Source: Balanoglossus misakiensis
Taxonomy: Eukaryota; Animalia; Hemichordata
Length of the DNA stretch: 64,000 nucleotides
NCBI GenBank assembly: GCA_040954595.2
Contig: CM082597.2
Span: 4,115,924 to 4,179,923 of the forward strand
Reading direction: 5' to 3'
Below are positions 16,484-30,533 of the stretch, in pieces (within the stretch, counting starts at the first letter, position 1; every line of letters starts with the position of its first letter). The notes beneath the pieces were generated by a model, which saw nothing but the letters and a program-made list of their open reading frames with translations, did no database searches and was not told where the DNA came from. A program made the position numbers and the translations under genes.

Positions 16484-16764
16484 TTAGAGATTATGATTTT
16501 CATCTTCATTAAGATATTTCCTGATATCATTAATCAAAGCTGGTCTTCCGATTGTATCAAACAGATTCTTGAGTAGATCAAGGTCATTGTGTGATATTAA
16601 CCCTTTTGTGCGCAGGATATTGAAAATATCACGGACATTTCTTATGTCGTCCCTCTCCTTTTTAGTGATTTGTGTCTCTGTCAGCAAGCCGAGTAGATCG
16701 TCCCTTTCCGTACCACTGAGTTTATTTTGAAGGCGGTAGAAGAGTACCAGTAACTTGTTCAAGC
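16484..16764 (-). CDS. Terminal exon encoding a death effector domain (DED)
   Basis: [21 protein letters not shown]...[36 protein letters not shown] fits the DED pattern; the RxDL motif appears as RPAL. Confidence 0.85.
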
Positions 16765-19700
16765 CTGTTATGATAGATAAAAGAATGTATCTAGGTAATC
16801 CAACACGTGTAGTAAATAATATTCAATCAGGGCACAAAAATTAAGATTTATAAATTTATAACTCTCTCTCTCCTCCCCTCTCTCTCTGCTACCCGCTCAT
16901 CTTCTCCCTCTCGTGTATAAATACGTACCTTTATTACCTTTGTCACTTTCATCTTCTACACCCGTGACCTGCACACCCGTGCCTACAATGGAAGAAATGT
17001 GAGAAACATAAAATGTAAGCTTTTAGATTACGCACTTAAAGAGAAAAAAAATGCGTTTGTGAGCTTTTTGACTTTACTAGATATTGAGTCAAATTTTGCC
17101 ATTTTGGTAAAATAAATGTACTAGTTTTTTCTTTAGAATTTGGTAACATGCATATCCTTTCAATGATCTTTCAACTCTGACTTTGTCTTAAATTTAATAC
17201 TACATACCTTGGTTTATTGCCGCTCGACTACTTTGCTATAAACAAAAAGGTACACGTATATAAATGAGTGTAAACAATGCGAAAAGTTTTTCAAACTGAA
17301 GTACTGTTTTACCATAATTTTAGTTATACTCAATAAGAGCAATCCGAAAAGGAATAGGAAAATGGTCACTGGCATATCAGGGGACGAAAATGTCAATTAA
17401 TCTGGCGCTTTTTCCCATGATTGAACAAAATAAGTTGATGAATCCGTTTTTTTCGTAAAAAGACGCGCGAGTTATACAATATTAAAGTGGCACAGCTTAT
17501 CCTTTAAGACTGTTTCGGATATTCTTTCAAAACGTCCTTCCACAAAAAGACTGAACCAACCCCAAATTGAGTGAACCTCCTCCAAATCACACCAACCTAG
17601 CTACCCCTGTCAATTCTGGCCATAACCTCATAGTTATATTTGTTGAAACTTTGGCTGAGAAGACATACTTTACTTCATAGTTTCGTTAAATTTGTATCTA
17701 CTTAGTATAATAGTATGATGAATTACACACACAAGAACGTGGATTGTGGATTGCTTGTACCAGCATCACTATATACAGAGTACAAAAAGGCAACTTACTA
17801 ACCTTTCCAAAGGTAAAGGGTAGTTCTGCTATTTGTTCTTGTCCTCTGAAGAAACACATTGACTCTGAGGTTCTGCTTACGCATTCATACCCAGAATTTT
17901 GTCCCACCAAAACATGCCAATAGTTGTCTACACTATCACCCAAATAAAGATGCTCATGTTGATCGCATTTTAGATATCCCTTCTTGGAGGCCGATTTACT
18001 CAACTTCGTAGAAATACTGTCACCAGGTTGTAACCATATGCATCTGGAACTTTCAAGATAATCATACTTTCTTTGTGGTACAGATGTGCAGATCGTTTGG
18101 ATGTAACTCTCTACTGATGCTACCAAGTGAACAAGGAATCGATCATTATGCTCTTTGTGTTGAAGAAGGCAAATATGTACAGGTTGAGCTCCTGATTTGG
18201 TGTGGCTGCTTATTATGTCGCACAATGCCTTGCAATCCACAGGCACCCGTTTCTCACTTAGAACGATGCAAATCCTGAAAACAATAGTCATCATAGGGCG
18301 CATGATTATTATATATCTACTGCCATTATCTATGGCATTCGGTCGTACAGTATGCTCCCGTATTTGTGCAGTTCGCAGAGTAACAATGTAACTGACGTGT
18401 ATGCGTGTCGTGAGAGAGTGGATATGTATTGAGTGACTAAAACATATGCTATGTTTGGTAGTATGAAAATTGATTCTCATCTTCTTGACTTTCATGGTAC
18501 ACATCCCTATGCTCCAAACATTGATGCAACTTCGTGGATCAAACTTAGTGCCATGGAAGCCATGTGCAATAGGTAAAAACTGCAGAACTTGCAGCATGTT
18601 CAATACTTCTGTTTGACAGAAAAAAAGCATATTCCACCAACTGTGCAGAACCTCTGAACTGCCCTGCTAAAATGTGATCTATGGAATCGAGTGTTCTCTG
18701 TGTGGGCTTATTTATGTTGGTAAAACAGGCTGCAGTCTACTCGCCAGAAAATGTTTTCAAACAGTACTTTGGACCCGTTTCCACTCCCTCCAAATTTTGC
18801 AACCCGTAAGTTTGAATTACAATATTGGGTGTGGGTATGTTGTACGCAATACTCGCAGAATAGGTTTCTGTCATATGTAACTTCGTGGATCATGGAGGCC
18901 ATGTGCAATAGGTAAAACGCTATATCTACGAATCGATATCACTCTATTTTTACTCTGAACCATGTGATAGGCAATAGTACTACAACAGGAAAAAACGCAA
19001 GTTGGATTATAAGTTGTTTCTAAAAAATCATTGAAACAATGCATCATGTTAACATATTCTCCATAGCAATTTGTTTATTGAACTGACACCCCTGCCTATG
19101 AAATTCTGGCTTTTAATTTAGAAATATTACGTTGATTCCATAAAAAATAGTATTATTCTTACCCACATAATGACTCGGTGGAAATTAGCACCATGCCGTC
19201 TGCAAAACTAAAGCTGACTTCATCTGTGATATTTCGCCACACTCCATTGTTCTTCTCGTCTTTCATGATAAAGATCTTTTTGTATGTAGACGGGGCATCG
19301 GGTGGTAATGGTATGGTTACGTCAACAGGTTTATTAAAGTATATCTTGCCATCGTTTCCAGTGCGCCTATTGAAATAAACGATGCTTGAGAATGTTGCTG
19401 TATCGTCTATGCTGGCAATGATGTCAGAATCGCAACGGTGAACCTAATGTGGAGAAATACACAAACTGTGTTACTTAGTTGCTGAACTTTCAGTCCAATT
19501 AGGTTCAATGTCATGTAATACAATATATCAACAAAAATTAAAATTAAAAACATGAGATATGAACTGAATATGCACATTAAATTGTCATTAAATTAAACTT
19601 TCTTTCAATGCAATTGATCTCTGTTATTCATTACTATCTTCGTGAAATCTTTGTCGCTAGTAAGTTTCATAAAATGTGTTCGATAAACTCCGATTTATAG

Positions 19701-28700: not shown

Positions 28701-30533
28701 GTGCTGACGACAAAACTGTTATAAATTGTACATATTTGTCCAAATACACACTGTTACAACATATTTTCAATATTTGTTGCAGTAATGTTCACGTAACTCT
28801 AAGTGTACGTTTAGTTATCTTTATGCTAGTGATAATGGTTTACAATACCATTGTCACATCGGGCTTAACGGTTTAAACATTTGAGTATCTCTTCGTAAGA
28901 CTTCTTAATTTCGCCCTCCTCAATGGACTTTATGAGACCTTCCTTTAAATCTTTTGCGCGTTGGAAACTGGTCGCAATTGTATCTTCCAAGACACAACAG
29001 GTAATTTTGTCGGCCCATATTTCAACAACATTCTCATTATCGTCCAAGGTTTCCCCTACCAAAATAGTTGCATAATGTAATGGCAGAAAAGTTTCTTTCC
29101 GCATAAAATCGGCAATACTTGAATTGGACTTAAACAGTACAGGTAGACCAGCAGCAATAGCATTGAGACCCGTTACGGAAAACATCTCTTCGCTTACATC
29201 AATGAGAAGAGAACTCCGTTCAAAAATAGATGGAAGACAATCTGAATAGTTGGGAAGAGAATGAATTTTGGGGCTTGTGGCTCTTTTGGGTGTGCCGTTT
29301 TCGTATGTTTCAATGGAGAACCAAATTGGTGGTTTACGATACACACGACGATGTCTTTCAATCACTTCATCGATCGCTAACGCTATAACACAAGAATCCC
29401 TCTCATTTCTGTCAACGAGATTTTCCATTGTCAGAATCTCAATGTTAGCATCATCTGGTGGGGCCGTCACATGTAAATCAAGATACTGCTTTTCAGGAAC
29501 AGGCAAATAGCACAATATGTCTGTCGATTGTCTCAACAAATTCGAATAATACCTCTTCAAAGATGGACCAACAACGACAACTAAACCCGCCTCTTCTGCA
29601 TACTGTATTATGTCTTCCTCTCCTAGTTTATTTTCGTTTCCGTAGCCCTTAATTTCTGATATGAAATGAATAAATACAACAAAAGTCGCGTTTGTGAAGT
29701 ACCTATCTCGGATAATACAGGCTTCCTCTACTGTGTCATAACCAATTGCATTAACATGCCCTACTATATATGACACTTTGTCTTTGTATCTTTTCAATAC
29801 TGTGTAGTATCTGTCGGGATACGACAGGTAATCTTCCTTTTTAATTTTGTGCGAGTGGCGTTTTGGTGTTGGCGTTGGCGTTATCAAAGTCACTTTGTTA
29901 TCTGCGGCATCTTTGAGTTCCACTTCGCTTGCTTCCAGTACAGTTGACATTACTTGATATCCAGAGTTTCGTAGTTGAATGGCGAACTGTTTGTTGACAA
30001 ACGATGTTGAATCTTCGAACTTTTCCTGTTGCCATCTCCTACCAATCAGCAAGAACATGCTATCAAATTCTGTAGAAATGTAAATAGCAGCATTATGAAC
30101 ATTAACTAAAAGTAAACTATTTAAATGTTCAACGTAATATGTACATTTTTTCAAACATAAATATTCTTGTGAGGGAAAATTGATCATAACATTTTAAACA
30201 TTGTTGAAAAAATTCTTAAACGCATATGGAGATATGATTGTCTCAAAAAATGTTTTTCTTTTTTTGGAAGAGAATAATTTAGTCCATATAAGTTTGTATG
30301 TTCATATAGCTTGTGATAAGCCCACATATCCCATTTAATGTACTGTAGCATCTGTTTGTCAGTGCGGATATGGTTGTAGATAAGGAAAGTACAATGCTAT
30401 GTAGTTCTTTCTTTGGTTGAAATTCATCGTTGTAATAATAGGTGACTGGTCAGTTTGTTTTGTGCTTAGATTACTAACCTGGTGATGCAGTCTTCGCTGT
30501 AGACGTTTCTAGAGACACTGGTGAGGCACACAT
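16484..30533 (-). CDS. Large mosaic death-fold protein: GT4-like, TRADD-N-like, GT4-like, coiled coil, ZU5, ZU5, UPA, DED (~1,650 aa)
   Basis: Phase-compatible exons: 30533-30479, 30069-28870, [optional 28274-28259 + 26752-26706], 26248-25877, ~25633-25518, 25048-23824, 23518-23156, 22341-22295, 21523-21236, 20383-20201, 19443-19163, 18274-17803, 17235-17208, 16982-16938, 16764-16484. The join after the first GT exon uses a weak donor (C|GTTAAG), so the first GT domain could be a separate gene. Confidence 0.7.
17803..21523 (-). CDS. Exons encoding a ZU5-ZU5-UPA supramodule (PIDD1/ankyrin/DTHD1 type)
   Basis: [12 protein letters not shown]...SDILEFQPP...SEDGENW...[17 protein letters not shown]...[10 protein letters not shown]...[12 protein letters not shown]...VWRNIT; followed by a ~150-aa beta-rich UPA-like exon. 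Confidence 0.75.
18659..18750 (+). mobile_element. Penelope-like element GIY-YIG endonuclease remnant (intronic)
   Basis: [20 protein letters not shown] is the characteristic PLE GIY-YIG motif with CxxC. Confidence 0.7.
21866..22158. repeat. (GT)n microsatellite, ~290 bp
   Basis: Nearly pure dinucleotide run. Confidence 0.99.
23212..23272 (-). repeat. Coding 21-bp tandem repeat x3 (RHQSALE heptad)
   Basis: AGTGCACTCTGGTGGCGCTCT units inside the coiled-coil exon. Confidence 0.9.
23519..23700 (-). mobile_element. LINE ORF2 C-terminal remnant abutting an exon
   Basis: [10 protein letters not shown]...[25 protein letters not shown] resembles the post-RT region of marine invertebrate non-LTR elements. 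Confidence 0.55.
23824..25048 (-). CDS. Exon encoding GT4-like domain 2 (degenerate)
   Basis: [37 protein letters not shown], and [32 protein letters not shown]; paralogous to domain 1. Confidence 0.78.
25277..25442. repeat. (TCCA)n microsatellite
   Basis: Directly visible. Confidence 0.97.
25877..26248 (-). CDS. Exon encoding a TRADD-N-like (DEDD C-terminal-like) domain
   Basis: [39 protein letters not shown]...[13 protein letters not shown] resembles the LxxFWxDYxxGxLxxxLxxxxITxxL...lxvdeeeY pattern of the DEDD C-terminus and invertebrate TRADD-N-like domains. Confidence 0.65.
27179..27913. mobile_element. Kolobok-like non-autonomous DNA transposon
   Basis: TTAA|GGTGGCATTGCATGAAA ... TTTCATGCAATGCCACC|TTAA: perfect 17-bp TIR with TTAA TSD. 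Confidence 0.85.
28870..30069 (-). CDS. Exon encoding GT-B fold glycosyltransferase family 4-like domain 1
   Basis: [21 protein letters not shown]-like [11 protein letters not shown], and [34 protein letters not shown] matching the GT4 PSxxEgFglvxlEAxaxGxPV motif. Confidence 0.8.

What the first reader, a model, noticed from the sequence alone, without database searches (positions are those of the whole stretch)
16484..30533. Mosaic PIDD-like death receptor: GT4-TRADD-N-GT4-CC-ZU5-ZU5-UPA-DED
Seen: scattered minus-strand ORFs join through phase-compatible GT-AG junctions into one ~1,650-aa protein. Known: ZU5-ZU5-UPA plus a death fold is the PIDD1/ankyrin/DTHD1 module, normally ending in a death domain and fronted by LRRs or ankyrin repeats. 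GT4 domains occur fused to invertebrate NLR-type immune proteins, and TRADD-N-like domains act as death-signalling adaptors. Here the sensor slot holds two GT4-like domains flanking a TRADD-N-like domain, and the output is a DED. I do not know this architecture from any characterised protein. Inference: a cytosolic innate sensor or scaffold coupling sugar or nucleotide-sugar recognition to FADD/caspase-8-type signalling.
Basis: partly seen in the sequence, partly recalled or inferred. Interest (0 to 1): 0.9.

Follow-up and report, generated by a model that had tools for sequence, protein, structure and literature searches.

The report
Dead-glycosyltransferase death-signalling scaffold gene
This stretch holds a spliced animal gene, likely from an acorn worm, predicted to encode an immune scaffold in which two probably inactive sugar-transferase domains are joined to a possibly self-cleaving module and a cell-death domain: a new arrangement of parts already known from a rapidly shuffled marine-invertebrate gene family.

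Summary
The observation largely holds. Fourteen minus-strand exons (30533-16484) join through 13 GT-AG introns into a stop-free 1,640-aa frame. Both GT4-conflict domains and the DED pass Pfam cut-offs; TRADD-N and the ZU5 pair are supported through homologues; UPA is only suggestive. No RNA evidence was available. One junction (first GT4 to TRADD-N) has a very weak donor beside a stop and a poly(A) signal, so a 419-aa GT4-only and a 1,240-aa product are live alternatives.

It is a new permutation in the described GT4/TRADD-N expansion of marine invertebrates (Kaur 2021): GT4-TRADD-N-GT4 and TRADD-N-ZU5-ZU5-UPA-Death are each listed there, the whole order is not among the rows seen. Each ZU5 keeps a nucleophile in a non-canonical cleavage motif; the DED lacks the FL and RxDL motifs. 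Best reading: a cytosolic pseudoenzyme-fronted, PIDD-like autoinhibited death scaffold. New variant of a known kind; moderate interest.

The parts
30479..30533 (-). Exon 1 coding part (aa 1-18), ATG at 30533; acceptor at 30547 implies an upstream exon
28870..30069 (-). Exon 2, first GT4-conflict domain (aa 19-418), partly degenerate active site; weak donor, or terminal exon with stop at 28867-28865
28371..28376 (-). AATAAA that could end a GT4-only transcript
25877..26248 (-). Exon 3, TRADD-N domain of the DEDD2 clade (aa 419-542); signature Ser replaced
25518..25633 (-). Exon 4, acidic linker (aa 543-581)
23824..25048 (-). Exon 5, second GT4-conflict domain (aa 582-989), all four C-lobe donor-binding residues lost
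23156..23485 (-). Exon 6, predicted coiled coil with a 21-nt repeat (aa 990-1099); alternative acceptor at 23518
22295..22341 (-). Exon 7, 47-nt frame-bridging exon with the best donor of the region
21236..21523 (-). Exon 8, first ZU5 (aa 1116-1211)
20201..20383 (-). Exon 9, end of first ZU5 with H1222-L-S1224 (20353-20345) and start of second ZU5
19163..19443 (-). Exon 10, second ZU5 ending in S1363-L-C1365 (19173-19165)
17803..18274 (-). Exon 11, UPA-position domain (aa 1366-1523); identity as UPA only suggestive
17208..17235 (-). Exon 12, 28-nt linker exon
16938..16982 (-). Exon 13, 45-nt linker exon (frame-neutral, skippable)
16484..16764 (-). Exon 14, death effector domain (aa 1548-1640) and stop; AATAAA at 15948

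Best explanation
The locus is a spliced gene, likely hemichordate, predicted to encode a cytosolic immune scaffold in which two probably inactive GT4 domains and a TRADD-N domain would act as the sensing and restraining front end of a PIDD-like ZU5-ZU5-(likely UPA)-DED death module. Shown: the reading frame, the domain content except UPA, and the loss of catalytic motifs. Inferred steps: (1) the GT4 folds no longer transfer sugar and serve as binding or decoy surfaces for a pathogen molecule or for a pathogen factor aimed at the active GT4 paralogues; (2) TRADD-N and the ZU5-UPA module hold the DED closed, as proposed for TRADD-N proteins and shown for UNC5/ANK2; (3) binding, or loss of the N-terminal part, possibly after self-cleavage at L1223/S1224 or L1364/C1365 (predicted 47 and 31 kDa C-terminal pieces), frees UPA-DED; (4) the DED engages a DED-bearing adaptor or caspase. 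The exon 2 donor is weak, so the full 1,640-aa form probably coexists with a 419-aa GT4-only and/or a 1,240-aa form.
For: Open frame and strong donors. Pfam GT4-conflict twice and DED above cut-off. The first GT4 and the TRADD-N exon independently pick the same relatives: P0084 and P0095 are the top 2 of 29 TRADD-N matches and, with P0116, form the first GT4's clade (support 0.977); P0084's cluster is XP_006811676, listed by Kaur et al. as GT4+TRADDN-DEDD2+Bcl-2, so the same front end already carries a death-regulating tail. P0002 has GT4-TRADD-N-GT4. ZU5 pair aligns to P0128 (E 2e-15 among 151 proteins, 0 of 1,000 shuffles reach either half), whose region reads as ZU5/UPA in the Atlas (0.95, 178 features) and whose HFS aligns with S-L-C. 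Motif loss: second GT4 keeps 0 of Arg, Lys, Glu, Glu; first keeps 1 (plus Lys to Arg); 30 of 31 GT4 segments from TRADD-N-bearing proteins keep at most 1, against 33 of 97 from the others; a 41-member clade (support 1.0) keeps at most 1 throughout. Roles of these residues: PMC8760489 passages. No AATAAA/ATTAAA between 25144 and 20918, so no obvious gene end after the second GT4.
Against: Exon 2 donor scores 1.5, the lowest of 13; its stop lies where 15 of the 25 best-scoring relatives end (7 continue, 3 stop short), AATAAA follows, and exon 1 can splice in frame straight to exon 3. UPA not recovered: pairwise tests not significant, a two-sequence profile ranked it only 2 of 501, Atlas hits under 0.9. 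Both ZU5 motifs have Leu where PIDD1, CARD8 and Nup98 need Phe (PMC3210808). TRADD-N lacks the conserved Ser/Cys. DED has Gly at caspase-8 F122 and RPAL for RxDL. One Glu is expendable in some GT4 enzymes, so the first GT4 may keep some activity. None of the 151 relatives examined has ZU5 or DED after the GT4 in this order, so no second copy confirms the full fusion. The relatives were retrieved with the second GT4 as query, which enriches its clade.
Confidence: 0.5

Rival explanations
1. Same parts, two products: exon 2 is an alternative terminal exon giving a free 419-aa GT4-like protein, and the death scaffold is the 1,240-aa TRADD-N-GT4-CC-ZU5-ZU5-UPA-DED form; the full 1,640-aa protein is rare or absent.
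For: Weak donor, stop at the domain end, AATAAA at 28376, exon 1 phase-compatible with exon 3.
Against: First GT4 and TRADD-N share the same closest relatives, in which they are fused in this order; exon 3 has no Met of its own, so it still belongs to this gene.
Confidence: 0.25
2. Brake rather than trigger: the protein is a decoy regulator whose DED, lacking the FL patch, caps DED filaments and whose dead GT4 domains restrain active GT4 paralogues.
For: Gly at the F122-equivalent, RPAL for RxDL (roles in PMC4558505); every catalytic or switch motif is altered.
Against: Three other invertebrate DEDs in the set also lack FL, so mammalian motifs may not apply; a terminal death fold behind ZU5-UPA is activating in PIDD1, NLRP1 and CARD8.
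Confidence: 0.13
3. Active effector as Kaur et al. propose for GT4 fusions: at least the first GT4 glycosylates invader or host molecules and is released by ZU5 cleavage, with the DED only docking the protein to a complex.
For: First GT4 keeps the His, first Glu and a basic residue at the Lys position; one Glu is expendable in some enzymes; PMC8195603 sections 12 and 15.
Against: GG loop, Arg and second Glu are lost in the first GT4 and everything in the second.
Confidence: 0.07
4. A young shuffled copy on its way to decay, with no current function.
For: Signature residues altered in GT4, TRADD-N, ZU5 and DED; weak donor; long branch of the first GT4 (1.65).
Against: 4.9 kb of frame without stop or shift and 11 strong donors; the motif loss of the second GT4 is shared by a clade spanning at least two genera.
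Confidence: 0.05

Closest known systems
GT4 + TRADD-N (DEDD2 clade) proteins of hemichordates, amphioxus and cnidarians (Kaur et al. 2021, PMC8195603; Pfam PF20706, PF20694); nearest listed member XP_006811676, GT4+TRADDN-DEDD2+Bcl-2
   Same: GT4 followed by TRADD-N, then a variable death-related tail; GT4+TRADDN+GT4 listed for Acropora (XP_015765571, XP_015778949) and found in Ptychodera P0002.
   Different: Tail is coiled coil-ZU5-ZU5-(UPA)-DED; the GT4 domains lack the catalytic residues, whereas the sections read treat GT4 as an active effector.
Coral TRADDN-DEDD2+ZU5+ZU5+UPA+Death and ZU5+ZU5+GT4 proteins (supplement of PMC8195603); Ptychodera P0128 (coiled coil-ZU5-ZU5-UPA-GT4)
   Same: TRADD-N or GT4 in one chain with a ZU5 pair and, in some, a terminal death fold.
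   Different: There GT4 mostly follows the ZU5 pair (one GT4+ZU5 row) and the terminal fold is a Death domain; 'UPA+DED' had 0 occurrences in the stored file.
PIDD1 (LRR-ZU5-ZU5-UPA-DD); NLRP1/CARD8 (FIIND-CARD); ANK2 and UNC5 modules (PMC9162469, PMC3210808)
   Same: Variable N-terminal sensor, ZU5 pair, UPA-position domain, terminal death fold.
   Different: No LRR, DED instead of DD or CARD, HLS and SLC instead of HFS or SFS; not an orthologue.

Membership tests
GT4-conflict (PF20706) | Profile match above gathering cut-off | tested here: met
   107.1 and 48.3 bits, cut-off 26
Active GT4 glycosyltransferase | EX7E motif plus pyrophosphate-binding Arg and Lys (PMC8760489) | tested here: not met
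   first domain: Asn, Arg, Glu, Asn; second: Glu, Glu/His, Ile/Asp, Thr
Active GT4 glycosyltransferase | Sugar transfer activity | not testable with these tools
   needs an assay
TRADD-N superfamily (DEDD2 clade) | Sequence homology to a curated member | tested here: met
   aa 465-551 match P0084/P0154 at E 2.4e-11 among 4 targets, 3e-10 among 151; that protein is listed as TRADDN-DEDD2; Pfam 21.6 bits is under the 23.7 cut-off
TRADD-N superfamily (DEDD2 clade) | Tiny residue + Ser/Cys at the beta2-beta3 turn | tested here: not met
   D473-R474 at that place
TRADD-N superfamily (DEDD2 clade) | RRM-like fold | tested here: inconclusive
   model pLDDT 74.7 with a poor N-terminal third; no clear structural match
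PIDD-type ZU5-ZU5-UPA-death fold module | Tandem ZU5 | tested here: met
   colinear match to P0128, whose region reads as ZU5/UPA; direct Pfam only E 0.12 on one exon
PIDD-type ZU5-ZU5-UPA-death fold module | UPA domain | tested here: inconclusive
   right place and size, shared short motifs, rank 2 of 501 against shuffles; other tests blank
PIDD-type ZU5-ZU5-UPA-death fold module | HFS autoproteolysis motif after each ZU5 | tested here: not met
   HLS and SLC: nucleophile kept, Phe replaced by Leu
PIDD1 orthologue | N-terminal LRRs and C-terminal death domain | tested here: not met
   no LRR hit; terminal fold is DED
DED (PF01335) | Profile match above cut-off | tested here: met
   50.5 bits, cut-off 35.9; best PDB matches caspase-8
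DED (PF01335) | FL hydrophobic patch and RxDL motif | tested here: not met
   G1573-L1574 and R1621-P-A-L

The most novel reading that the evidence does not exclude
Acorn worms have turned an expanded clade of GT4 glycosyltransferases into catalytically dead sensor or decoy domains, and this gene wires two of them to a self-cleaving ZU5-UPA tripwire with a DED output: an NLRP1/CARD8-like sensor that uses integrated pseudoenzyme decoys and signals to caspase-8-type proteases.
Probability: 0.18. Interest if true: 0.78.

Novelty: new variant of a known kind. Interest (0 to 1): 0.45.

Why it matters
The exact domain order is one more permutation in a family known for shuffling, which alone is of modest weight. 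The more general point is that the GT4 domains paired with TRADD-N in the hemichordate set examined are nearly all predicted pseudoenzymes (30 of 31 segments), while the published model treats them as enzymes. If they are decoys or sensors, that would be an animal parallel to integrated decoys of plant immune receptors (comparison recalled, from no call), and this gene, with predicted cleavage sites and a defined death output, is a direct test case.

Tried and rejected
No genome is held for the window. No RNA holder was listed, so no reads were laid; this says nothing on expression. Word-based homologue searches: first GT4 gave 1 amphioxus protein, exon 11 none, P0128 region only itself. PDB sequence searches with single ZU5 exons found nothing relevant, nor did P0128 hit a ZU5 structure. 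Single-sequence fold of exon 11 had pLDDT 36 and no match; the TRADD-N model found no match above Z 3.2: both inconclusive. Exon 7 resembles the start of a GT4 domain by eye but a GT4 profile did not support it. No paralogous exons elsewhere in the window. A hidden ATG-led exon in intron 2: three candidates with modest donors, none compelling. The neighbouring epimerase-family gene was taken as coincidence, untested. Earlier findings of this scan: nothing returned. The spliced protein could not be given to Pfam, folding or Atlas tools, which leaves ZU5 and UPA tested only exon by exon or through relatives. Literature searches for the architecture or for inactive GT4 immune domains listed no paper other than PMC8195603 that appeared to treat it; most listed papers were seen as listings only. 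Supplement file 4 of that paper was cut when stored and of file 6 only the first 12 places per term were seen, so an identical architecture in unseen rows is not excluded.
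Full report
Setting. The window is animal DNA with introns; neighbours include epimerase-family, RIIa, CFAP91, CKS and CARD-CARD exons. No genome is held. Of 30 relatives looked up, 29 are from Ptychodera flava, Glandiceps talaboti or Saccoglossus kowalevskii and 1 from Branchiostoma belcheri, so the source is likely a hemichordate (inference).

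The observation. Reading the minus strand gave 14 exons from 30533 to 16484 that join through 13 GT-AG introns of 173-2,621 nt into 1,640 aa with one terminal stop; an alternative exon 6 acceptor gives 1,651 aa. The two long frames (442 and 457 aa) exceed the longest in 200 shuffles (175). Eleven of 13 donors reach a U1-match score of 4, which 10% of 1,201 local GT sites reach (the consensus is recalled). Small bridging exons 4, 7 and 12 were chosen by eye; shuffles gave a bridge with as good a donor in 1, 0 and 8 of 100. An acceptor 13 nt above the ATG leaves the 5' end open. No RNA run was listed.

Domains. Exons 2 and 5 pass Pfam GT4-conflict (107 and 48 bits, cut-off 26) and exon 14 passes DED (50.5, cut-off 35.9); exon 3 scores 21.6 on TRADD-like_N (cut-off 23.7); exon 9 touches ZU5 at E 0.12; exon 11 has no relevant hit. 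A search with the second GT4 found 203 representatives, of which the best 150 were listed. Among these plus one earlier hit, 27 match exon 3; the best, P0084, is in the cluster of XP_006811676, which Kaur et al. list as GT4+TRADDN-DEDD2+Bcl-2. That settles TRADD-N by homology, though the signature Ser/Cys is replaced and the fold search was inconclusive. One of 151, P0128, matches the ZU5 pair colinearly across exons 8-10 (E 2e-15) and its region reads as ZU5/UPA in the Atlas (0.95). Exon 11 lies where UPA should, and shares short motifs with P0128 and P0083, but pairwise tests were not significant and a two-sequence profile ranked it 2 of 501; Atlas and folding did not help. UPA is therefore suggestive only. 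Exon 6 has a heptad pattern (0.62 hydrophobic at a/d in the best register) and a frame-keeping 21-nt repeat.

One gene or two products. Exons 3-14 are well tied together: good donors and no AATAAA or ATTAAA between 25144 and 20918. The link from exon 2 to exon 3 is the weak one. Against it: the donor scores 1.5, no in-phase donor in the last 280 nt scores above 3, the frame stops two bases after the donor, AATAAA lies at 28376, 15 of the 25 best-scoring relatives end within -3 to +10 residues of that stop, and exon 1 splices in frame to exon 3 to give 1,240 aa. For it: in a tree of 139 of 167 GT4 segments (those covering at least 78% of the profile) the first GT4 groups with P0084, P0095 and P0116 (support 0.977, long branch), all of which continue past the domain, and P0084 and P0095 are also the two best matches to exon 3. 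I judge the fusion ancestral and probably still used, with alternative products likely.

The GT4 domains look dead. GT4 enzymes bind the donor with an EX7E motif and an Arg and a Lys (PMC8760489, passages), and the family profile aligns at this motif to solved GT4 enzymes. The second domain keeps none of the four and has acidic residues in the pyrophosphate positions; the first keeps the first Glu and has Arg for Lys but lacks the GG loop, Arg and second Glu. Of 165 segments, 128 were complete enough to score: 30 of 31 from TRADD-N-bearing proteins keep at most 1 of 4 (the exception is the amphioxus P0067), against 33 of 97 from the others, 54 of which keep 3 or 4. The second GT4 lies in a 41-member clade (support 1.0) in which all keep 0 or 1 and 31 of the other 40 carry TRADD-N; the 14 looked up are Ptychodera (10) and Glandiceps (4). 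The loss is thus old and retained, not private decay. The set is biased by the query, and kin are not independent counts.

The death module. PIDD1 cleaves itself at HFS after each ZU5 and CARD8/NLRP1 at SFS, the Phe being important; Ser, Thr or Cys can be the nucleophile (PMC3210808, passages). Here the sites are H1222-L-S1224 and S1363-L-C1365, the latter aligned with the HFS of P0128. Cleavage is possible but not assured; it would free 47 or 31 kDa pieces. In UNC5 and ANK2 the module folds back to hide the death fold (PMC9162469, passages). The DED is closest to caspase-8 among solved chains but has Gly at F122 and RPAL for RxDL, surfaces that matter for DED pairing (PMC4558505, passages); three other invertebrate DEDs in the set also lack FL.

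Mechanism. Most likely (0.5) a cytosolic scaffold in which pseudo-GT4 domains bind a pathogen molecule or a factor aimed at active paralogues, TRADD-N and ZU5-UPA keep the DED closed, and engagement or loss of the front end exposes the DED to a DED adaptor or caspase. All four steps are inferred. Rivals: the same machine split into two products (0.25), a brake on DED filaments (0.13), an active glycosylating effector (0.07), decay (0.05).

Comparison. PMC8195603 (sections 8, 11, 12, 15, other passages, searches of supplement files 4 and 6) describes GT4-TRADD-N proteins in hemichordates, amphioxus and cnidarians, lists GT4+TRADDN+GT4, TRADDN+ZU5+ZU5+UPA+Death and ZU5+ZU5+GT4, and predicts autoproteolysis for ZU5-bearing members. 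All 96 ZU5 places in file 4 were seen and none has this order; 'UPA+DED' occurs 0 times; the file was cut when stored. The passages read do not mention inactive metazoan GT4 domains. Coral GT4 fusions to TPR, LRR/NACHT and ankyrin are also described (PMC12314368, passages). The protein works like PIDD1 in layout but is not a PIDD1 orthologue, and it has no membrane anchor.

Verdict. Real gene, mostly right domain call, new variant of a known shuffled family. The pseudoenzyme finding is the part worth following. Interest 0.45.

Noticed in passing
window 45981-46580 (-): A 200-aa frame with two CARD domains (Pfam E 7e-32), another death-fold gene 15 kb upstream.
   Followed up: partly
window 23520-23714 (-): The frame just upstream of the coiled-coil exon looks like the tail of a LINE ORF2 (recalled resemblance, untested); it may supply the acceptor tract.
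   Followed up: no
window 1165-2112 and 3929-4789 (+): Tandem duplicate exons with Laminin_G_3 / concanavalin-like domains.
   Followed up: no
window 8814-13786 (+): Exons of an NAD-dependent epimerase, by eye GDP-fucose synthase-like, tail to tail with the GT4 gene; probably coincidence.
   Followed up: partly
window 33135-33305 (-): Candidate upstream untranslated exon with a good donor at 33134.
   Followed up: no
window 21866-22158 and 25277-25442: A 146-copy TG repeat and a 42-copy TCCA repeat inside introns of the gene.
   Followed up: no
window 34237-35732 (-): Two frames (200 and 104 aa) of an upstream gene with no Pfam hit.
   Followed up: partly
proteins P0003-P0051: The commonest hemichordate layout among close relatives is degenerate GT4, TRADD-N, then NHL propeller repeats.
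   Followed up: partly
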